The position numbers and the translations under genes are program-made. From positions 41,011-105,010 of the forward strand of contig CAITGV010000005.1 of assembly GCA_903892035.1 (NCBI GenBank): a stretch of DNA of 64,000 nt. Direction: 5' to 3'. The number at the start of each line of letters is the position of its first letter. Within the stretch, counting starts at the first letter, position 1. The stretch is from an uncultured bacterium. GTDB lineage: Bacteria > Patescibacteriota > Minisyncoccia > Phycocordibacterales > UBA9973. Under the pieces are notes generated by a model. The model had not been told where the DNA came from. It searched no databases and was given only the letters and a program-made list of their open reading frames with translations. Positions 26,432 through 64,000 of this stretch are shown in pieces.

Positions 26432-29400
26432 TTAATTTTTTAAATATTCTTTATAAGATTTAATTTCTAAATCTTCGATACGATAATTTGAAAGTGCTTT
26501 TACGAATGCGCGGGCGAGGTGCAGGTCGGTAAAAAGTGGAATTTGATTGTCGACAGCACTACGGCGAATCTGAAAACCATCAGTCAATTTAGTATTATCC
26601 TCTTTTACTGTACCTGTCACCTGACTTAAATTTACCACAAAAGCGACTTGCTTGCTCTGCATTATATCTAGGAAATTTGGTGACGCCTCAAAAGCTTTAC
26701 GAACCATGCTTACATCGAGGCCTTCACTTTTGAAAAATTCAGAAGTTCCTTCAGTAGCAAAAAGTTTATAACCCAAATCTTGTAGCATCTTTGCAGATTC
26801 CAAAAACTTGGCTTTATTTACTGTGCCACCAAGAGCAAGCATCACATTCTTTTTTCTAAAATCAAAAGTGTGTGCACTCATAATTGATTTCAATAGTGCT
26901 TCGTTATAATCTCTTCCAAAACAAGCAACCTCTCCAGTAGAAGACATTTCGACGCGCAATATTGGATCAGCACCAAGAAGTCGAGAAAAAGAAAATTGTG
27001 GAGATTTCACAATTACATTTTTCGGATAAATAAAATTGTGTGGCACTGCTTTTCCAAAAAAACTATCAACGGCCATTTCAGGGAAATTCACATCCATCGC
27101 TTTTGAAAGCATTGGGAAAGTTCGACTTGCACGAAGATTTACTTCAATTACTGAAGGTTTATTGTCTTTAACGAGAAATTGAATGTTGAATGGTCCAGAA
27201 ATATTTAATTCTTTAGAAATCTTTTTTGAAATTTCTTTCAATTGCGATTCAGTTGAAGCATAAACTCTCTGTGTTGGGAAAACTATCGTTGCATCTCCCG
27301 AATGCACTCCTGCATTTTCTACGTGCTCAGAAATTCCGTAGACCATCAATTCTCCGTTTTGAGCAATAGCATCAAATTCAAGTTCTTTTGCATTTTCAAC
27401 AAATTTTGAAATAGTTACAGGGTGTTCAGGTCCCAGAACTGCAGCCTTGCCTATGAAGTTGTGAAGTTGGGCTTTATTGTAACAAACGCTCATAGCGGAC
27501 CCCGAGAGCACATATGAAGGGCGCACAAGCACTGGGTAACCTTCTTTATCAGCAAATTTCTCTGCTTCAGCAACAGTTGAAAAACTTTGCCATTTTGGTT
27601 GTAAAATATTTAATTTATCTAGAAGTGCAGAGAAAGCATTGCGGTCTTCGGCGCGATCGATATTTGAAGCTTTTGTACCTAAAATATGAAAACCTTCTTT
27701 AGAAATTTTTCTTGCCAAATTATTTGGTCGCTGTCCTCCAACTGAAATAATAAGTCCAAAAGCATTTTCAAATTCAAAAATATCAGCAACAGTTTCAAAT
27801 GAAAGATTTTCAAAATACAATCTATCCGACATATCATAATCTGTCGAAACAGTTTCAGGATTGCAATTTATAACAATCGACTTTTTATTGTGCTTTTTTA
27901 AAGCAAGAGCAGCGTTGACACAGGACCAATCAAATTCAACAGACGAACCAATATGATACGGCCCAGAACCCAATACCACCACAGCTTTTTTCCCAATAGG
28001 CGCAACATCGTGGTGAAAACCATGATATGTAAGATACAAATAATTTGTTTTTGCTGGTACTTCTCCCGCAAGAGTGTCTATTTGAAATACAGAAGGCATG
28101 ATGCCAAGACTTTTGCGAAGTTTTCGAATTTGAAATTCAGTTTTCCCTACAACTGAACCAATTTTTTTATCTGAAAAACCAAGTTGTTTTAATTCCAAAA
28201 GATTTTGTTTATCTATATTTTTCTTCGCATGTCCGTAATCTTGATGAAGGCGGGTCTCAGCTTTTACTATTTCTTCTATTCTATACAAAAACCATTTATC
28301 AATACCAGTTATTTTTCGAAGTTCATCTACAGACATTCCATCTTTCATACTTTCAGAAATTGCAAAAAGTCTTTTTGGATTTGGTATATGTAAAAATTTT
28401 TCCACCTCTGCTTTACTTGCAAAACCATTGTCAGTCACACTCTCTGTTGCACCAGATTGCATTCTCACTGCTTTTTGAAGCGCTTCTTCAAAACTACGAC
28501 CTATTGCCATCACTTCACCTACAGATTTCATTGCACTACCAATTTTAAGGTCAGCGCCGACAAATTTATCAAGGTCCCACCTTGGCATTTTTACAACCAC
28601 ATAGTCGAGTGCTGGCTCAAAAAAACTCTGTGTAACTTCCGTAATTTTATTTTTTATTTCCAATAAACTGTAACCAAGGGCAAGCTTTGCTGCAACATAT
28701 GCAAGCGGGTATCCAGTAGCTTTTGAAGCAAGAGCACTTGAACGTGAAAGTCTTGCATTAACTTCAATGACATAATAATCAAGAACCCCACCCTGCCCTC
28801 CCCGAAGGGAAGGGTTAGGATTCAGCGCATACTGCACATTACATTCACCAACAATTCCAAGACTTTGCACAATTTTAATACTTGCTTCGCGTAGTCCATG
28901 ATATTCAGCATTCGTCAAAGTTTGAGAAGGAGCAATGACAATCGAATCTCCAGTATGAATTCCAAGTGGATCAAAATTTTCCATATTACAAACTGTCACA
29001 GTATTATTATATTTATCTCGAACTACTTCATATTCAATTTCCTTAAAATGATGCAAATATTTTTCAATTAAAACTTGAGGTGAAATTGCAAGTGCACCTT
29101 CGACAATTTCTTTCAATTCTTTTTCATTTTCCGCTACTCCAGACTTTTGTCCACCCAAAGCAAAAGCGGCACGCACCATTATTGGGTAACCGATTTTTTT
29201 TGCTTCTTCTATTGAATCTTTTAAATTCGTAGCAGCTGCCGATGGTGCGGTCGGAATTCCCAATGCCCTTAAATGATCTGCAAAAAGTTGCCGATCTTCA
29301 GTGAGGTCAATTGATGCTACTGGAGTTCCTAATACTTTTATATTATATTTTTTTAATATACCTTTTTCTTCTAAAGCAAGCCCACAATTAAGTGCAGTCT

Positions 29401-29674
29401 GCCCACCAAAAGAAAGCATTATGCCGTCTGGTTTTTCTTTTATAATAACTTTCTCAACAAAATATGGATTGACTGGTAAGAAGTATACTTCATCAGCAAG
29501 ATCTTTTGATGTTTGAAATGTTGCAATATTTGGATTGATCAAAACAGTTTTAATATTTTCTTCCTTAAGTGCTTTTATAGCTTGGCTTCCAGAATAATCA
29601 AATTCACCTGCTTCACCAATTTTCAAAGCTCCTGAACCTAAAACCAATATTTTTTTAAATTTTTGTATTTTCAT
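26432..29674 (-). CDS. carB: Carbamoyl-phosphate synthase large subunit
   Basis: 1080 aa with duplicated ATP-grasp halves, an oligomerisation domain and a C-terminal MGS-like domain. Confidence 0.95.
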   Translation of the reverse strand: MKIQKFKKILVLGSGALKIGEAGEFDYSGSQAIKALKEENIKTVLINPNIATFQTSKDLADEVYFLPVNPYFVEKVIIKEKPDGIMLSFGGQTALNCGLALEEKGILKKYNIKVLGTPVASIDLTEDRQLFADHLRALGIPTAPSAAATNLKDSIEEAKKIGYPIMVRAAFALGGQKSGVAENEKELKEIVEGALAISPQVLIEKYLHHFKEIEYEVVRDKYNNTVTVCNMENFDPLGIHTGDSIVIAPSQTLTNAEYHGLREASIKIVQSLGIVGECNVQYALNPNPSLRGGQGGVLDYYVIEVNARLSRSSALASKATGYPLAYVAAKLALGYSLLEIKNKITEVTQSFFEPALDYVVVKMPRWDLDKFVGADLKIGSAMKSVGEVMAIGRSFEEALQKAVRMQSGATESVTDNGFASKAEVEKFLHIPNPKRLFAISESMKDGMSVDELRKITGIDKWFLYRIEEIVKAETRLHQDYGHAKKNIDKQNLLELKQLGFSDKKIGSVVGKTEFQIRKLRKSLGIMPSVFQIDTLAGEVPAKTNYLYLTYHGFHHDVAPIGKKAVVVLGSGPYHIGSSVEFDWSCVNAALALKKHNKKSIVINCNPETVSTDYDMSDRLYFENLSFETVADIFEFENAFGLIISVGGQRPNNLARKISKEGFHILGTKASNIDRAEDRNAFSALLDKLNILQPKWQSFSTVAEAEKFADKEGYPVLVRPSYVLSGSAMSVCYNKAQLHNFIGKAAVLGPEHPVTISKFVENAKELEFDAIAQNGELMVYGISEHVENAGVHSGDATIVFPTQRVYASTESQLKEISKKISKELNISGPFNIQFLVKDNKPSVIEVNLRASRTFPMLSKAMDVNFPEMAVDSFFGKAVPHNFIYPKNVIVKSPQFSFSRLLGADPILRVEMSSTGEVACFGRDYNEALLKSIMSAHTFDFRKKNVMLALGGTVNKAKFLESAKMLQDLGYKLFATEGTSEFFKSEGLDVSMVRKAFEASPNFLDIMQSKQVAFVVNLSQVTGTVKEDNTKLTDGFQIRRSAVDNQIPLFTDLHLARAFVKALSNYRIEDLEIKSYKEYLKN

Positions 29675-29675
29675 A

Positions 29676-30734
29676 TTATTTATTGATTAATCCTGCTTTT
29701 TTTAAAAAATAATCAAAAATCCAATCTGTATCAAGCGGGCCTGGTGAACTTTCGGGGTGAAATTGCACAGACATAAAAGGAAAAGTTTTGTGAATTATTC
29801 CTTCATTTGTTCTATCATTTGCATTGCTAAACCATTGTTTAAATCCTTTCGGAATTTTTCCTACAGCAAAACCGTGATTTTGTGTTGTTAGATAACAACT
29901 ATTTGTGCCTTCTAAAATACAAGGTTGGTTTTGACTTCTGTGTCCAAATTTTAATTTATATGTCGTACCTCCCATCGCAAGAGCGAGAATTTGATTTCCA
30001 AGACAAATGCCAAGTGTTGGAATTTTTTTAGCAATTATTTTTTTAACATTTGCAATTGTTTCTTTTACTTTTTTAGGATCTCCAGGACCATTTGAAATTA
30101 ATACTGCATCAACTTTAAAATCCAATTTTGTTACATCTGTATTCCAAGGCACTATTGCGACTCTTAGACCGCGATCAAGAAGTCTACGAACCATATTTTT
30201 CTTATTTCCACAGTCTATTAAAACAATTGTTTTTTTACCTTCGCCCAATATTTGTATCTCTTTCGTAGAAATCTCGGCAGCCAAATTTCTTTTATTCGGA
30301 TCTTCAAAAGGAACATCTTTTCCTTCTACTATAATTTTTCCAAGCGTAGAACCTTCGTCGCGAAGTTTTTCTGTAAGCATTCTTGTATCTTTAATTTCAA
30401 GTGCTGGAATTCCCTGTTTTTTTAGCCATTCACTTAATGTCATTTCGCTATCGTAGTGTGATGGAGTATCGATGTAACTTGAAACTATAAGTCCGGAAAT
30501 TTGAATATTTTCAGATTCCCATTTTTCTTTATTTGGTACACCATAATTTCCTACAAGTGGATACGTCATCACTAGTATTTGTCCTCGAAAAGAAGGATCG
30601 GTAATTGCTTCTGGATATCCCACCATACCCGTAGCAAAAACAACTTCTCCGGACATTGAAATATCTGCGCCAAAACTTTTGCCGACAAATTCACTTCCAT
30701 CTTTGAAAACCAATTTAGAAAATTTATTTTTCAT
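29676..30734 (-). CDS. carA: Carbamoyl-phosphate synthase small (glutamine amidotransferase) subunit
   Basis: 352 aa with the CPSase small-chain N-terminal domain and a class I GATase domain (catalytic GICLGNQ). Confidence 0.9.
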   Translation of the reverse strand: MKNKFSKLVFKDGSEFVGKSFGADISMSGEVVFATGMVGYPEAITDPSFRGQILVMTYPLVGNYGVPNKEKWESENIQISGLIVSSYIDTPSHYDSEMTLSEWLKKQGIPALEIKDTRMLTEKLRDEGSTLGKIIVEGKDVPFEDPNKRNLAAEISTKEIQILGEGKKTIVLIDCGNKKNMVRRLLDRGLRVAIVPWNTDVTKLDFKVDAVLISNGPGDPKKVKETIANVKKIIAKKIPTLGICLGNQILALAMGGTTYKLKFGHRSQNQPCILEGTNSCYLTTQNHGFAVGKIPKGFKQWFSNANDRTNEGIIHKTFPFMSVQFHPESSPGPLDTDWIFDYFLKKAGLINK

Positions 30735-31953
30735 TTTTTTTAATTACTCCATTAATAATAGTCGCGACGACATTCCCTGGAAAAGTGACGCCTAAAAAAG
30801 GTGACCACTTACATTTTGTTTTTAAAATATTTTGTGTGATACATATTGGTTTATTTAAATTCAACATACAGAGTGATCCACTGTAACCTTCCTGTATTTT
30901 TCCATATTTATTTTCCATGAATATATTTAAAAAGTTACCCGGATTTGTTGAACATACTTTTAAAATTTCTTCAGGTTTAAAATTGTGCACCACAATAAGC
31001 CACGAAACAAAATTTCCGTAAGTATCGAGATGTGTGAGACCAGAAATACCTTTTTCTTTTTCCTCAATACTATGAGGAGCGTGATCTGTGGCAAGGTAAT
31101 CAATATCACCCGCACGCAACATCTCAATAAGAGCTAGACGATTTTCTTTTGTTTGCCTTATAGGCGGGTTCACTTGAAATTTCGTTCTGTTTTCTTCAAT
31201 CATACTTTCATCAAAATATAGATGGTGTGGTGTGACTTCTACTCTCACTTTCAATCCCCTTTTCTTCGCATCAACTATTTTTTTAATTCCTTCTATTGTT
31301 GAGCAATGACAAATTTTTCCGACAATATTATATTTTTCGATTAAATAAAGAGCGAAGTCTACTGCTGAAATTTCTGCGCTCGCAGGGCGACGCATTTCGT
31401 GGGTTGGTAAGTCTTTCGAGATTTCCATTATTTCTGGATCCTCACAATGAAAACTAACATTCTGTCCTTCATATTTTGAAATTGAATTTTCTAAATCAGA
31501 AAGCGTAGTAAAAAATAAATCTCCAACTGAGTGTCCCATAAATACTTTGTACGGAACATTCTTATCTAAAGGATTAGTATTAGGGCCAATACCAGCATAG
31601 AGCAGTACCTCTACTGGTGATTTTTTGGCCAAATTGTTTTTTACATTATAACTTTCATCATCTATTGGTGAAACTACATTGTTTGGCATGTCAGCAAATG
31701 CCACAACACCACCATTTATCGCTGCTTCGCCTGCAGTAGTAAAATCTTCTTTATATTCTTGTGAGTGACTTGCATCCTCGCGAGCGTGAACATGAAGGTC
31801 TATAAAACCAGGGAAAATTAATTCATCTTTAAAAACAATATCTGCGATACCGGTCGCATCTGTAACTTTTGAAATTAAACCGGAATCATTAATTTCAACT
31901 CGTCTGCGAGCTTGTCCGTTTTCTGTGATGATGTTTCCTTCGATGGTTAGCAT
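30724..31953 (-). CDS. pyrC: Dihydroorotase (amidohydrolase family)
   Basis: 409 aa with the metal-binding HVH near the N-terminus (DLHVHARE) and a later DHAPH motif. It overlaps carA by 11 nt. Confidence 0.8.
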   Translation of the reverse strand: MLTIEGNIITENGQARRRVEINDSGLISKVTDATGIADIVFKDELIFPGFIDLHVHAREDASHSQEYKEDFTTAGEAAINGGVVAFADMPNNVVSPIDDESYNVKNNLAKKSPVEVLLYAGIGPNTNPLDKNVPYKVFMGHSVGDLFFTTLSDLENSISKYEGQNVSFHCEDPEIMEISKDLPTHEMRRPASAEISAVDFALYLIEKYNIVGKICHCSTIEGIKKIVDAKKRGLKVRVEVTPHHLYFDESMIEENRTKFQVNPPIRQTKENRLALIEMLRAGDIDYLATDHAPHSIEEKEKGISGLTHLDTYGNFVSWLIVVHNFKPEEILKVCSTNPGNFLNIFMENKYGKIQEGYSGSLCMLNLNKPICITQNILKTKCKWSPFLGVTFPGNVVATIINGVIKKNEK

Positions 31954-32061
31954 AATATTAAATATTTACTATATATAGATTACTATATTAGGTCTTCGAC
32001 TCGGACAATGTGAAAATGAATACACTTTCACTTGCTCCTCGTTCGACCTAATAAAAAAATA

Positions 32062-32088
32062 CCCCCATCTCTCGGGGTGAGAGTGGGG
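32062..32088 (-). terminator. Attenuator-like intrinsic terminator in the pyrC-carAB-pyrB leader. A short leader ORF (31969-32124, minus) is translated across it.
   Basis: The minus strand reads CCCCACTCTC-ACCCC-GAGAGATGGGGG followed by TATTTTTTTATT, about 110 nt upstream of the pyrC start. A TTGACA-17-TATCTT promoter-like pair lies at 32172-32144 (minus). Confidence 0.45.
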
Positions 32089-32182
32089 TTTCAAAGTCAT
32101 AGAAGTGTGTTCTTTATATTTCATGTCTTTAGGTATTCCATAAAAGATACCAAAATGAGAATTTAATGTCAAATAAATAAAC

Positions 32183-59896: not shown

Positions 59897-61429
59897 ATGA
59901 TATATAATAGGCAAATGAAAATAAAAAACGAAAAAGAACGCATCGGTAATTTTATTAAAACTATACGTGAGGGGCAAGGTTTTACTCAAGAAGAGTTTGC
60001 AAAAGCTCTATCTACCTCGCAAAGTGCTGTGGCTCGCATGGAGAGCGGTAAACAAAATTTTACAATGGAGCAACTCGAGAAAATAAGTACAGTATTGGGC
60101 AGAAAAATTCTTTCCCTTTCTTCTTCAATAGACTTTGAAATAAATGGTGGCAAAAAACTATCGGGTAGCATCGATACAAATTATTCAAAAAATGGCGCGA
60201 TCAATATGCTCTGCGCTACTCTCATAAACCAAGGCAAAACAGTGCTACACGGTATTCCTCACATCGAGGAAGTACACCGCTATATAGAAATAATGCAAAG
60301 TCTCGGAGTTTCCGTAAAATGGATTGGTGATGATTCACTTGAAATTATAGTTCCAAATAAATTAAATTTTGAAAGTATAGACAAAGATACGGTGGCAAGA
60401 ACTCGTTCATTTACATTTGTCGGAGCTCTTATTCACTATGCAAAATCATTCACTTACCCAAACTCTGGTGGTTGCAAAATGGGAGAGCGCACTATAGCTG
60501 CGCATAAATACGGCTTGGAAAAACTTGGTGTAAAAATTTTAACCAAAAAAAATACATATGAAATTTCTTATAAAAAATTAAAGCCAAATACTATCCCCCT
60601 CTATGAATCCAGCGACACAGGAGCTATCAATATGCTCATTGCAGCTGCAAGAATTCCGGGAATTACAACAATAAAATTTGCTCCGCCAAATTACCAGGTG
60701 CAAGACGTATGTTTTCTTTTAGAAAAAATGGGAATAAAAATTGAAGGTATTGGTACTACTACTCTCGTAGTGCACGGAGTCGAACAAATAAATAAAAATA
60801 TTGAACATTATAATAGTGAAGACCCTATTGAATCAATGTTTTTCATTACTGCAGGAATTGTCACAAAATCAAAAATAACAATAAATCGCTGCCCCATAGA
60901 ATTCCTCGAACTCGAAATGGAAAAACTTTTACATATGGGTCAAAAATACACAAAATCAAAACCCTATTTTTCAAAAAACGGACGAACGACTTTAGTCGAC
61001 ATTACGATACTCCCTTCAAATCTAAAAGCATTGCCGGACAAAATTCACACACAACCTTTCCCTGGAATTCAAAATGACAGTTTGCCATTTTTCGTGTCTA
61101 TCGCTGTTCAAGCAAAAGGCACCACGCTCATTCACGATTGGACTTGGGAAAATAGAGCGATATATTTTACTGAGTTAAATAAATTGGGTGCAAAAATAAC
61201 CCTTATGGATCCACATAGAGCCATCATAGAAGGCCCATCAAAGCTTCGTGGAGCGCAAATAGTCTGCCCACCTGCACTCCGCCCTTCTGCAACAATATTT
61301 ATCAGTATGCTTGCCGCCGAGGGAGTCTCGACTCTTCGAAATATTTACTCAATTGCACGTGGCTATGAAGATATTGCCGAAAGATTAAATTCACTCGGTG
61401 CTGATATAAAAATTTTGAAAGGCATTTAA
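59897..61429 (+). CDS. murA: UDP-N-acetylglucosamine 1-carboxyvinyltransferase with an N-terminal XRE-family HTH domain (fusion)
   Basis: Residues ~7-75 form an HTH_XRE domain (IGNFIKTIREGQGFTQEEFAKALSTSQSAVARMESGKQNFTMEQLEKISTVLG). The remaining ~420 aa are MurA/EPT fold, with the active-site Cys loop at YPNSGGCKMGERTI. The start may be at 59915 instead. Confidence 0.8.
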   Translation: MIYNRQMKIKNEKERIGNFIKTIREGQGFTQEEFAKALSTSQSAVARMESGKQNFTMEQLEKISTVLGRKILSLSSSIDFEINGGKKLSGSIDTNYSKNGAINMLCATLINQGKTVLHGIPHIEEVHRYIEIMQSLGVSVKWIGDDSLEIIVPNKLNFESIDKDTVARTRSFTFVGALIHYAKSFTYPNSGGCKMGERTIAAHKYGLEKLGVKILTKKNTYEISYKKLKPNTIPLYESSDTGAINMLIAAARIPGITTIKFAPPNYQVQDVCFLLEKMGIKIEGIGTTTLVVHGVEQINKNIEHYNSEDPIESMFFITAGIVTKSKITINRCPIEFLELEMEKLLHMGQKYTKSKPYFSKNGRTTLVDITILPSNLKALPDKIHTQPFPGIQNDSLPFFVSIAVQAKGTTLIHDWTWENRAIYFTELNKLGAKITLMDPHRAIIEGPSKLRGAQIVCPPALRPSATIFISMLAAEGVSTLRNIYSIARGYEDIAERLNSLGADIKILKGI

Positions 61430-63393: not shown

Positions 63394-64000
63394 TTACGCA
63401 AATGCTAAAAGCACCACACCAAGTATAAAACAAGCAAATGCAATGCGTTTGCGCGAAGAAAAACTTTCTTTCATTATAAAAATTCCCCACAATGCAGCTA
63501 TCACATACCCTCCACCTCGAATTGCAAGCACATATGAAGTTGGACCATTTGCAAAAGCGAGCATGCTTGCAGTAAAGGAAATCGCTTGAAAAACTCCAAG
63601 TAGCATCAAAGGCCAAAAAATATTTCCAATTTTTTTAATTTCATTTTTTTCTTTATACACATACATCAAAATAATAAACATAATTGATGCACCAAGTGTA
63701 TTCATAAAACTATAGAATACTGGAGTCGATGCAGAAATTGAAATTTTATCGAGAGTGGAGCCAATAGCAATTCCAACTGTTGTGATTATCATCCAAAGTT
63801 CGGGTTTACTTTTCATGTGTGTTCCTTTCTTCTTAAGTAACAAAAAAGTTCCGAAAATTATTCCAGCAACACCAAAAATCCCTGCTATTGAAGGAACTTC
63901 ATGAAGTAATAGAAAAGAAGTTATAACATTGAATGCTGGAACAAGCGCCAAAATAGGTGTAACCGAAGAAAGCTCGCCTTCTCTCATTGAGCGATACATA
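63394..64000 (-). CDS. EamA/DMT-family transporter (partial; N-terminus beyond the window)
   Basis: 201 aa shown, multi-TM, with a duplicated EamA-like hydrophobic repeat. The ORF continues past the window end. Confidence 0.55.
   Translation of the reverse strand, partial: MYRSMREGELSSVTPILALVPAFNVITSFLLLHEVPSIAGIFGVAGIIFGTFLLLKKKGTHMKSKPELWMIITTVGIAIGSTLDKISISASTPVFYSFMNTLGASIMFIILMYVYKEKNEIKKIGNIFWPLMLLGVFQAISFTASMLAFANGPTSYVLAIRGGGYVIAALWGIFIMKESFSSRKRIAFACFILGVVLLAFA

What the first reader, a model, noticed from the sequence alone, without database searches (positions are those of the whole stretch)
31954..32180. Leader region of the pyrC-carA-carB-pyrB operon with an attenuator-like terminator translated by a 52-codon leader ORF
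Seen directly, in order on the minus strand. There is a TTGACA-17 nt-TATCTT promoter-like pair (32172-32144). An ORF then starts at ATG 32124 (MKYKEHTSMTLKPHSHPERWGYFFIRSNEEQ...) and reads straight through a 9-bp G/C stem-loop plus U7 tract (32088-32051). It ends 16 nt before the pyrC ATG. This arrangement is a leader peptide whose translation crosses the terminator, with the U-tract read as Phe-Phe. It is the logic of the E. coli pyrBI UTP-sensitive attenuator (established), rather than the PyrR anti-terminator type, and no pyrR gene is visible in the window. The loop (CCCGAGAGA) only weakly resembles the PyrR-binding consensus.
Basis: partly seen in the sequence, partly recalled or inferred. 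Interest (0 to 1): 0.5.

Follow-up and report, generated by a model that had tools for sequence, protein, structure and literature searches.

The report
Ribosome-dependent attenuator before pyrimidine operon
Upstream of the pyrimidine-synthesis operon of an uncultivated Patescibacteria (CPR) bacterium sits a promoter, a short translated leader and a transcription terminator, and this layout recurs in 22 related genomes, so it most likely works like the E. coli pyrBI/pyrE attenuators, where a ribosome following RNA polymerase decides whether the operon is transcribed.

Summary
On the minus strand there is TTGACA-17-TGgTATCTT (32172-32144). A 51-codon ORF runs from ATG 32124 to TAG 31971-31969. 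A GC hairpin plus U7 lies at 32088-32053, and pyrC-carA-carB-pyrB follows.

The window alone is weak evidence for the ORF (shuffle p about 0.13). Comparison settles it. The organism is a Patescibacteria (CPR) bacterium. In 22 pyrC loci from CPR genomes and metagenome contigs, the first ATG after a conserved extended -10 promoter opens an ORF that reaches the terminator hairpin every time. Shuffles predict 2.5 of 22, and the other two frames are open in only 6 and 7.

The hairpin covaries. The RNA before it is G-poor and unstructured, so there is no antiterminator. No PyrR site or any Rfam family is found, and there is no pyrR in the window. Leaderless mRNAs are common in this genome, and 10 of the 22 leader ORFs look leaderless.

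In 10 relatives the ORF stops at a UAG in the hairpin loop, and in 2 it abuts the hairpin as in E. coli pyrE. In the window it reads through as pyrL does.

Best reading: a ribosome-as-antiterminator attenuator. Sensing of UTP/CTP through polymerase speed is inferred, not shown. It is a new, non-homologous variant of a known kind.

The parts
32167..32172 (-). -35 hexamer TTGACA of the pyr promoter
   Evidence: TTGAC is invariant in the alignment of 16 class I leaders.
32144..32152 (-). Extended -10 element TGgTATCTT
   Evidence: All 22 loci used were taken with a TTGnnn -35 and a TGn-TAnnnT -10 at 16-18 nt spacing, 17 in all class I loci. TG was a selection criterion for the four loci added later.
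32136..32139 (-). Inferred transcription start (GGAA, 5-8 nt after the -10). This gives a 5'UTR of 11-14 nt with no Shine-Dalgarno sequence.
   Evidence: Inference from promoter geometry. Not measured.
31969..32124 (-). Leader ORF: 51 codons plus TAG (then TAA). It reads through the terminator and ends 15 nt before the pyrC ATG.
   Evidence: The homologous ORF is present in 22/22 loci against 2.5 expected from shuffles.
32091..32106 (-). U-enriched stretch just upstream of the hairpin (ACTTCTATGACTTTGA, 44% U). Candidate UTP-sensitive pause region.
   Evidence: Across 16 leaders U is 0.45 here against 0.23 earlier in the ORF (Wilcoxon p=0.0013). Pausing itself is inferred.
32063..32088 (-). 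Terminator hairpin: C-rich 5' arm CCCCACUCUC, loop ACCCC, 3' arm GAGAG-A-UGGGG
   Evidence: dG -16.8, z -3.6. Covariation in relatives: 5 of 10 pairs compensatory, 90% of cells paired, 0/500 shuffles.
32051..32062 (-). GUA + U7 + AU tract completing the intrinsic terminator. Predicted 3' ends at about 32055-32050.
   Evidence: TTATTTTTTT is nearly invariant in relatives.
31986..32053 (-). Second, long hairpin starting at the last U of the U-tract and lying inside the 3' part of the leader ORF. Function unknown.
   Evidence: dG -28.9, z -6.8. Unique in the window. Unrelated GC-rich hairpins occupy the same place in several relatives.
30724..31953 (-). pyrC (dihydroorotase), first gene of the regulated operon. 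Its ATG has no SD.
   Evidence: TIGR00857, 8.5e-78.
25510..30734 (-). carA (30734-29676), carB (29674-26432) and pyrB (26427-25510), tightly packed downstream genes
   Evidence: TIGR01368, TIGR01369 and TIGR00670, all above their cut-offs.

Best explanation
This is a transcription attenuator in which the ribosome itself is the antiterminator, the same logic as E. coli pyrBI (pyrL) and pyrE.

1. Transcription starts about 32137 from a sigma-70-type extended -10 promoter.
2. The nascent leader is G-poor and unstructured, and it carries a short ORF (ATG 32124).
3. About 36 nt later RNA polymerase transcribes a U-enriched stretch, then the C-run 5' arm, then the G-rich 3' arm, then U7.
4. If a ribosome translating the leader ORF is close behind the polymerase, it sits on the 5' arm (codons 13-17, K-P-H-S-H). 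The hairpin cannot form and the polymerase reads on into pyrC-carA-carB-pyrB.
5. If the ribosome lags, the -16.8 kcal/mol hairpin forms and transcription stops at about 32052.
6. Inferred step: ribosome lag depends on polymerase speed, and so on UTP (U-rich stretch) and perhaps CTP (C-run). Low pyrimidine nucleotides would slow the polymerase, tighten coupling and raise operon expression.
7. In the window, the ribosome that has read through continues to TAG 31971-31969. On the way it melts the second hairpin. It terminates 15 nt before the SD-less pyrC ATG, which probably helps pyrC initiation (inferred).

Shown from sequence: the architecture, its conservation, hairpin covariation and the absence of alternative RNA structures. 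Inferred: translation of the ORF, termination at the U-tract, and nucleotide sensing.
For: - The elements are present and the leader is more structured than chance.
- The host is a CPR/Patescibacteria bacterium.
- 22 pyrC loci share promoter -> ATG -> ORF -> GC hairpin + U6-7 -> pyrC: 16 of 'class I' and 6 of 'class II'.
- The first ATG at least 6 nt after the -10 has no in-frame stop before the hairpin in 22/22 loci. Frames +1 and +2 are open in 6/22 and 7/22. Composition-preserving shuffles predict 2.5 successes.
- In class I the ATG lies at a nearly fixed distance from the hairpin: 36-42 nt, and exactly 41 nt in 9 of 16. Its distance from the -10 varies from 7 to 25 nt.
- Among the 16 class I ORFs the stop lies in the hairpin loop in 10, in the 3' arm in 1, and abuts the hairpin in 2; 3 others (WIN, L005, L007) read through to near the pyrC ATG and L013 stops shortly after the U-tract. 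In every case a terminating or elongating ribosome would cover the 5' arm.
- The hairpin covaries.
- The leader before the hairpin has 8% G and folds no better than shuffles, and nothing upstream pairs stably with the 5' arm. No RNA antiterminator exists.
- U is enriched just before the hairpin.
- This genome shows few SD-like motifs (8/58), and 17/57 genes have a -10 box 5-9 nt before the ATG. ATGs that lack SD or are leaderless are therefore normal start sites here.
- Geometry matches the E. coli paradigms fetched here. pyrL has 44 codons, reads the U8 as Phe-Phe and stops 3 nt before pyrB. The wild-type rph stop lies 7 nt before the pyrE attenuator hairpin.
- Experiments in E. coli show that a stop codon within a few nt of a terminator represses it, while more than 27 nt restores it. 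They also show that leader peptides need pause sites for coupling (PMC4824070; PMC5021804).
Against: - There are no transcript or translation data. Promoter use, termination at the U-tract and ORF translation are all predictions.
- The window's own ORF has a 5'UTR of about 12 nt without SD and is not significant on its own (p about 0.13).
- The U-rich stretch is not universal (U 0.19-0.69). UTP-sensitive pausing is therefore weakly supported.
- About a quarter of CPR pyrC loci (class III: L003, L011, L027, L149-L152) have no terminator at all.
- The loci are phylogenetically related, so the shuffle statistics overstate independence.
- A conserved 5'UTR motif (RGATAAY, palindromic with the -10 in 3 loci) hints at an extra, unidentified regulatory layer.
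Confidence: 0.5

Rival explanations
1. The same ribosome-versus-terminator device, but not pyrimidine-specific. It would gate the operon on general translation capacity or growth state: ribosome availability and stringent conditions. Polymerase speed would play no nucleotide-specific role.
For: - ORF, hairpin and absence of an antiterminator, as above.
- The U-rich stretch is variable.
- No pause hairpin is evident.
Against: - The element is found in front of a pyrimidine operon in all 22 loci.
- U enrichment before the hairpin and a C-run in the 5' arm are systematic.
Confidence: 0.2
2. An unidentified trans-acting factor is the sensor. It could be an RNA-binding protein recognising the conserved hairpin (invariant CCCC/GGGG, asymmetric internal loop, UAGG loop) or the 5'UTR motif. 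It could also be a repressor binding the palindrome over the -10/+1 region. The small ORF would be auxiliary.
For: - Several hairpin positions are invariant rather than covarying.
- The RGATAAY motif is present in 10 of 12 non-leaderless leaders, and perfect 7-9 bp palindromes with the -10 occur in L006, L012 and L089.
- A TTATCAAT motif lies downstream in several loci.
Against: - No candidate regulator gene is linked in the window.
- The palindrome is significant in only 3 of 16 loci and is absent from the leaderless leaders.
- This reading does not explain the 22/22 ORF conservation or the fixed ATG-to-hairpin spacing.
Confidence: 0.12
3. Leader-peptide sensing of an amino acid or of the nascent chain, either a classical trpL-type attenuator or an arrest peptide. 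Candidates are Asn or Arg codons, or the [RP]-N-[KQ]-I-like motif.
For: Leader peptides of relatives are rich in Asn and share a loose N-x-hydrophobic pattern at residues 8-12.
Against: - There are no tandem regulatory codons.
- The window peptide has no Asn before the hairpin.
- There is no alternative 2:3 antiterminator pairing.
- The peptide pattern is explained by an A/C-rich then U-rich nucleotide composition.
Confidence: 0.05
4. Not a regulator. The hairpin would be a leaky constitutive terminator or insulator, and the ORF a non-functional by-product.
For: - The window ORF alone is not significant.
- Class III relatives manage without a terminator.
Against: - A terminator placed between a conserved promoter and its operon, with a conserved ORF of fixed length reaching it in 22 diverged loci, is hard to explain without function.
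Confidence: 0.06
5. PyrR-type attenuation: a UMP-bound PyrR protein binds the leader RNA.
For: It is a pyr operon leader with a terminator.
Against: - No RF00515 hit at gathering threshold or at E<=10 in the window.
- No Rfam hit in 20 related loci.
- The GAGAG string is stem, not loop, and is not conserved.
- No antiterminator or anti-antiterminator exists.
- No pyrR in 64 kb.
Confidence: 0.02

Closest known systems
E. coli/Salmonella pyrBI attenuator with leader peptide PyrL
   Same: - A promoter, then a leader ORF, then an intrinsic terminator, then the first pyr gene.
- The ORF reads through the hairpin and the U-tract is read as Phe-Phe. E. coli: GGG GCT TTT TTT TGC. Window: GGG TAT TTT TTT ATT.
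- The ORF ends just before the structural gene: 3 nt in E. coli, 15 nt in the window.
- A U-rich region lies upstream of the hairpin.
- There is no RNA antiterminator.
- BLASTP even aligns HSHPERWGYFF with HSQPLNRGAFF, because both are translations of a C-rich arm, a G-rich arm and a U-tract in the same frame.
   Different: - No sequence homology beyond that forced similarity.
- ATG-to-hairpin distance is 36 nt here against 88 nt in E. coli.
- There is no SD before the leader ATG (E. coli has GGAGG).
- No pause hairpin is evident.
- The first gene is pyrC in a pyrC-carA-carB-pyrB operon.
- The host is a CPR bacterium.
- UTP dependence is untested.
E. coli rph-pyrE attenuator
   Same: A translated upstream ORF must bring a ribosome up to the terminator. 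In E. coli the wild-type rph stop is 7 nt before the hairpin and is preceded by UUUUUAA. Relatives L008 and L010 have the leader stop abutting the hairpin, and class I leaders end in UUUUAA before CCCC.
   Different: - Here the ORF is a dedicated leader ORF of 12-51 codons, not a full-length gene.
- In the window the ORF reads through rather than stopping before the hairpin.
PyrR-dependent pyr attenuators of Bacillus and other Firmicutes (Rfam RF00515)
   Same: A terminator in the leader of a pyrimidine operon.
   Different: There is no PyrR-binding motif, no antiterminator or anti-antiterminator, and no pyrR gene nearby.
Classical amino-acid leader-peptide attenuators (trpL, hisL, pheL)
   Same: A short leader ORF and an intrinsic terminator, with transcription and translation coupled.
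   Different: - Opposite logic. There, a ribosome that reaches the end of the ORF favours termination through alternative hairpins.
- Here there are no alternative hairpins and no regulatory codon runs.

Membership tests
pyrBI/pyrE-type ribosome-mediated (translation-coupled) pyr attenuator | Intrinsic terminator between the promoter and the first pyrimidine gene | tested here: met
   Conserved and covarying in relatives.
pyrBI/pyrE-type ribosome-mediated (translation-coupled) pyr attenuator | An ORF whose translation brings a ribosome onto or next to the 5' arm of the terminator hairpin | tested here: met
   The ORF is present. It is conserved in 22/22 loci against 2.5 expected, with off-frames open in 6-7/22. 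Actual translation is not testable here.
pyrBI/pyrE-type ribosome-mediated (translation-coupled) pyr attenuator | No competing RNA antiterminator; the ribosome is the only antiterminator | tested here: met
   The pre-hairpin leader folds at 0 to -5 kcal/mol with z about +0.7. The 5' arm is essentially unpaired upstream, and G content is 8%.
pyrBI/pyrE-type ribosome-mediated (translation-coupled) pyr attenuator | U-rich, UTP-sensitive pause region upstream of the terminator | tested here: inconclusive
   U is 0.45 in the 16 nt before the hairpin against 0.23 earlier (p=0.0013). The range is 0.19-0.69 and the window value is 0.44. Pausing cannot be tested.
pyrBI/pyrE-type ribosome-mediated (translation-coupled) pyr attenuator | Read-through rises when UTP (pyrimidine nucleotides) is low | not testable with these tools
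   Needs in-vitro transcription-translation or transcript mapping.
Enterobacterial pyrL leader (homologous family) | Sequence homology to pyrL | tested here: not met
   BLASTP gives only an 11-residue match encoded by the hairpin and U-tract (E=0.01 for a single comparison). The DNA is otherwise unrelated.
PyrR-binding attenuator (RF00515) | PyrR-binding stem-loop motif | tested here: not met
   No hit at gathering threshold or at E<=10 in the window. No Rfam hit in 20 related loci.
PyrR-binding attenuator (RF00515) | Antiterminator and anti-antiterminator alternative structures | tested here: not met
PyrR-binding attenuator (RF00515) | pyrR gene in or near the operon | tested here: not met
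   All 58 non-overlapping ORFs of at least 90 aa in the 64-kb window were scanned. The only PRTase-domain protein is Prs. The rest of the genome was not seen.
Classical amino-acid attenuator (trpL type) | Run of regulatory codons plus mutually exclusive 2:3 and 3:4 hairpins | tested here: not met
Riboswitch | Conserved structured aptamer upstream of the expression platform | tested here: not met
   The upstream leader is unstructured and poorly conserved. There are no Rfam hits.

The most novel reading that the evidence does not exclude
A lineage-wide, undescribed family of minimal attenuators in Patescibacteria. A 12-18-codon leader ORF, leaderless or lacking SD, starts at a fixed 41 nt before the terminator and ends at a UAG placed in the terminator loop. 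That is roughly where a ribosome running directly behind the polymerase would be expected to sit when the polymerase reaches the U-tract (estimated from general knowledge of ribosome and RNAP footprints, not computed here). The U-run and the invariant C-run of the 5' arm would make it a dual UTP/CTP sensor. As far as two full-text literature searches found, no leader-peptide attenuator has been described in CPR bacteria; one built on a leaderless leader ORF would to my knowledge also be new, which I did not search for.
Probability: 0.35. Interest if true: 0.6.

Novelty: new variant of a known kind. Interest (0 to 1): 0.45.

Why it matters
To my knowledge little is established about gene regulation in CPR/Patescibacteria, which are mostly uncultivated and have reduced genomes, and de novo pyrimidine synthesis is not universal among them. 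A conserved cis-element absent from Rfam shows three things about these organisms. They regulate the pathway. They do so without a dedicated regulator protein. They rely on transcription-translation coupling even where mRNAs are leaderless. The in-loop stop codon and the fixed 41-nt spacing give a compact natural test case for how close a ribosome must be to RNA polymerase to suppress an intrinsic terminator. The element is also a ready-made annotation feature, and a candidate covariance or ORF model, for CPR genomes.

Tried and rejected
1. Metagenome scan with the pattern AACCCCN{15,20}GGGGKTATTTTTTT. Only L089 and L130 were pyr leaders, so the single metagenome scan was largely wasted. I could not ask whether the element also precedes other pyr genes.
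2. PyrR. The 174-aa ORF upstream (32943-32419) looked like a pyrR candidate by size, but it is a Nudix hydrolase. There are no Rfam hits.
3. The 142-aa ORF after pyrB is not PyrI. It is an 8xMP membrane protein.
4. A search for an antiterminator or any alternative pairing of the 5' arm found none.
5. Asn/Arg-codon or conserved-peptide sensing. The pattern is explained by nucleotide composition and is absent in the window.
6. The palindrome over the -10/+1 region as an operator is significant in only 3 of 16 loci.
7. The GTTTTCCACA motif as a general promoter element does not occur more often than chance in the window.
8. The Turnbough & Switzer review and Roland et al. 1988 are not held. Statements about UTP-sensitive pausing in pyrBI rest on my own knowledge plus PMC4824070 and PMC5021804.
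9. Literature searches for attenuators or leaderless mRNAs in CPR found nothing relevant.

Full report
**Observation.** On the minus strand the intergenic region 32418-31954 lies between a Nudix hydrolase gene (32943-32419) and pyrC (31953-30724). carA, carB and pyrB follow pyrC.

- The -35 TTGACA is at 32172-32167, followed by a 17-nt spacer ending in TG and the -10 TATCTT at 32149-32144. This is the only hit in the consensus scan with a TG extension.
- An ORF runs from ATG 32124 and encodes MKYKEHTSMTLKPHSHPERWGYFFIRSNEEQVKVYSFSHCPSRRPNIVIYI. It ends at TAG 31971-31969 plus TAA, 15 nt before the pyrC ATG.
- The hairpin spans 32088-32063. It is CCCCACUCUC / loop ACCCC / GAGAG-A-UGGGG, with dG -16.8 kcal/mol and z -3.6. 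It is followed by GUA-U7.

The hairpin+U pattern is unique in the window and absent from 100 shuffles. The 187-nt leader folds with z = -5.3. On its own, however, an ATG-initiated ORF that reaches the hairpin arises in 13% of shuffles of the window leader. The window alone cannot show that the ORF matters.

**Organism and relatives.** PyrC relatives at 48-72% identity come almost entirely from Patescibacteria (CPR) metagenome-assembled genomes. These are labelled Saccharibacteria, Nomurabacteria, Paceibacterota and Doudnabacteria. The window is part of a 128-kb metagenome scaffold.

I collected the DNA upstream of pyrC from these loci. Two more loci came from an otherwise unproductive metagenome pattern scan.

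**Conserved architecture.** Twenty-two loci share the layout promoter -> ATG -> ORF -> GC hairpin + U6-7 -> pyrC.
- Sixteen loci are 'class I' (window, L005-L010, L012-L014, L018, L020-L022, L089, L130). They have TTGAC-17-TGnTATCTT and a hairpin of the form (A)ACCCC-n-CCC..GGG-nn-GGGGTT-A-U7.
- Six loci are 'class II' (L001, L002, L004, L015, L153, L154). They have a different promoter flavour, a 31-50-codon ORF and a shorter hairpin.
- Seven CPR loci are 'class III' (L003, L011, L027, L149-L152). They have the class II-type promoter and a tiny ORF but no terminator.

The element is therefore widespread but not universal.

**The ORF is real in the comparative sense.** I took the first ATG lying at least 6 nt after the -10 without regard to what follows.
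- The frame it opens has no stop before the hairpin in 22 of 22 loci.
- The +1 and +2 frames over the same span are open in 6 and 7 of 22.
- Composition-preserving shuffles predict 2.5 successes in 22. The loci are related, so independence is overstated. The intervening sequence is nevertheless highly diverged: mean column identity is 62% including the invariant promoter and hairpin.
- In class I the ATG sits at a nearly fixed distance from the hairpin: 36-42 nt, and exactly 41 nt before the first C in 9 of 16. Its distance from the -10 ranges from 7 to 25 nt. The start codon is tied to the terminator, not to the promoter.

The position of the stop is informative. Counts are for the 16 class I loci:
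- In 10 loci the stop is a UAG in the hairpin loop, +13 to +16 from the hairpin's first base.
- In L022 the stop is in the 3' arm.
- In L008 and L010 a UAA abuts the hairpin.
- In L013 the ORF stops shortly after the U-tract.
- In the window, L005 and L007 the ORF reads through and ends within -8 to +15 nt of the pyrC ATG.

In every case a ribosome finishing or continuing the ORF must occupy the 5' arm.

**Can such ATGs be used?** In the window only 8 of 58 genes have an SD-like motif. Seventeen of 57 genes have a TAnA[AT]T box ending 5-9 nt before the start codon, with a sharp peak at 6 nt. That is the signature of leaderless mRNAs. Ten of the 22 leader ORFs have their ATG 7-8 nt after the -10 and so look leaderless. 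The window's leader ATG is 19 nt after the -10. This implies a 5'UTR of about 12 nt that is A-rich and lacks SD, as does pyrC itself.

**The hairpin is a conserved RNA structure.** RNAalifold predicts 10 pairs, and 5 of them show compensatory changes. On that structure 90% of cells are paired. None of 500 shuffles reaches the observed pairing or covariation score, and sliding the partners by 1-3 columns collapses the signal. The outer CCCC/GGGG pairs and the U-tract are invariant.

**What is absent.**
- The RNA from the start to the middle of the hairpin folds at 0 to -5 kcal/mol, no better than shuffles. The 5' arm finds no upstream partner. The segment between ATG and hairpin has only 8% G. 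There is therefore no antiterminator, no anti-antiterminator and no aptamer.
- Rfam gives nothing at gathering threshold or at E<=10 around the window leader, and nothing in 20 related loci. That excludes a recognisable PyrR site and every curated riboswitch.
- There is no pyrR-like protein among the window's ORFs. Prs is the only PRTase-domain protein.
- There are no runs of regulatory codons.

**Mechanism.** Only something that physically occupies the 5' arm can prevent termination, and a conserved ORF delivers a ribosome exactly there. This is the logic of the E. coli pyrBI and pyrE attenuators.

I fetched both for comparison:
- pyrL has 44 codons and reads through AGCCCCUC-aauc-GAGGGGCU-U8, with the U-tract read as Phe-Phe. 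It stops 3 nt before the pyrB ATG.
- The wild-type rph stop lies 7 nt before the pyrE attenuator hairpin and is preceded by UUUUUAA.

The window copy resembles pyrL. L008 and L010 resemble pyrE. The loop-stop majority lies in between.

BLASTP even aligns HSHPERWGYFF (window) with HSQPLNRGAFF (PyrL), with E 0.01 for the single comparison. This is the translation of a C-rich arm, a G-rich arm and a U-tract in the same frame. It is not evidence of homology.

Published E. coli experiments support the geometry:
- A terminator a few nt after a stop codon is repressed by the terminating ribosome. More than 27 nt restores termination.
- Terminators within the first 100 nt of an ORF escape ribosomes unless pause sites synchronise the two machines, as in pyrBI (PMC4824070).
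- Tight coupling across pyrL is needed to prevent the terminator (PMC5021804).

**The sensing step is inferred.** In pyrBI, from my own knowledge of Turnbough's work, low UTP makes RNA polymerase pause in a U-rich region so that the ribosome catches up. I could not retrieve those papers.

Here U is enriched in the 16 nt before the hairpin, 0.45 against 0.23 earlier (p=0.0013). The strongest enrichment is at -7 to -4. The 5' arm is always the C-rich one. Both UTP and CTP shortage would therefore slow the polymerase just before the 3' arm is made. But the U content varies from 0.19 to 0.69, and it is 0.44 in the window.

I put 0.5 on 'ribosome-mediated attenuator sensing pyrimidine nucleotides through polymerase speed'. 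I put a further 0.2 on the same device without nucleotide specificity.

**Window-specific extras.** After the U-tract the ORF continues through a strong second hairpin at 32053-31986 (dG -28.9, z -6.8). That hairpin is unique in the window. The ORF then ends 15 nt before the SD-less pyrC ATG. In L005 and L007 the leader ORF overlaps the pyrC ATG by 8 nt, as ATGCTTAG. This suggests translational coupling or re-initiation at pyrC in the read-through subclass (inference). The role of the second hairpin is unexplained. Unrelated GC-rich hairpins sit at the same place in several relatives.

**Novelty.** The kind of mechanism is known, namely the enterobacterial pyrBI and pyrE attenuators. This is a non-homologous, lineage-specific family that is absent from Rfam 15. 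I found no report of it in the searchable literature.

It has distinctive features:
- leader ORFs that lack SD or are leaderless;
- a fixed 41-nt ATG-to-hairpin spacing;
- a stop codon placed in the terminator loop.

I rate it a new variant of a known kind, of moderate interest.

Noticed in passing
window, all genes (e.g. 34884, 35909, 42861, 46394, 47570 starts): Only 8/58 ORFs have an SD-like motif. 17/57 have a TAnA[AT]T -10 box ending 5-9 nt before the start codon, with a peak at 6 nt. Leaderless mRNAs appear to be common in this CPR genome.
   Followed up: partly
window 32419-32360 (-): GTTTTCCACA (32419-32410) is followed by the promoter-like TTGCAA-17(TGg)-TTTAAT. The same GTTTTCCAC(A) motif lies just upstream of the pyrC promoter in L001, L002, L003, L011, L027 and L151. 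It is not enriched in the window overall. It may be a pyr-linked protein-binding site.
   Followed up: partly
window 32356-32290 (-): Long-loop hairpin GGUGGUAAU..(32 nt)..AUUGCCGCC followed by CCC and U8 (dG -9.9, z -2.1), downstream of the promoter-like site above. It could be a short RNA or the Nudix terminator.
   Followed up: no
window 32254-32129 (-): TAGAAT, then 6 nt, then ATG 32242: the leaderless signature. It opens a 37-codon ORF starting AUGUUUUUUC. That ORF reads through the strong hairpin 32214-32183 (dG -21.9, z -5.8) plus GTTTATTTATTT and runs across the pyr promoter. This may be a second, tandem ORF-through-terminator unit. It was not seen in relatives.
   Followed up: partly
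window 32282-32245 (-): Near-palindrome CCTAGACATtatttaATGTTCTAG about 80-100 nt upstream of the pyr -35. It is operator-like (read).
   Followed up: no
window 32053-31986 (-): A strong hairpin starts at the last U of the attenuator U-tract and lies inside the 3' part of the leader ORF (dG -28.9, z -6.8; unique in the window). Function unknown.
   Followed up: partly
window 32138-32131 (-); L005-L009, L012-L014, L021, L089, L130 leaders: A conserved RGATAAY motif lies at about +1..+8 of non-leaderless class I leaders. It forms perfect 7-9-bp palindromes with the -10 region in L006, L012 and L089 only. It could be an operator or a -10-like pause element.
   Followed up: partly
L005, L006, L007, L010, L012, L014, L018 between terminator and pyrC: A recurrent T(T/A)ATCAAT motif and GC-rich hairpins with CGAAG internal motifs lie downstream of the attenuator.
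   Followed up: no
L089, about 120-400 nt after the attenuator: An ORF that looks like a GIY-YIG nuclease (MFYTYILQSQKDNKFYTGYTKDL...) is inserted between the attenuator and pyrC. The identification is by eye only.
   Followed up: no
L003, L011, L027, L149-L152: These CPR pyrC loci have no terminator. They have a promoter followed 8 nt later by a mini-ORF that starts ATGTG[CT] in most of them (ATGTAT in L003, ATGCGC in L152), apparently leaderless.
   Followed up: partly
window 25483-25055 (-): The 142-aa ORF after pyrB is an 8xMP membrane-protein family member, not the ATCase regulatory subunit PyrI. No pyrI is in the window.
   Followed up: yes
window 63354-62281 (-): A dihydroorotate-dehydrogenase-like gene (PF01180) has no attenuator-like leader. 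Only 39 nt separate it from the upstream EamA-family ORF (63394-63999), and no copy of the hairpin + U-tract pattern occurs there.
   Followed up: partly
window 59897-61429 (+): A 510-aa protein has an N-terminal HTH_3 domain fused to an EPSP-synthase/MurA-type domain. This is an unusual fusion.
   Followed up: no
window 1245-751 (-); L154 1037-1609: A PaaX_M / Cas2-like domain protein with a possible winged helix is in the window. A PaaX_M protein also lies near pyrC in L154. This is probably coincidental.
   Followed up: no
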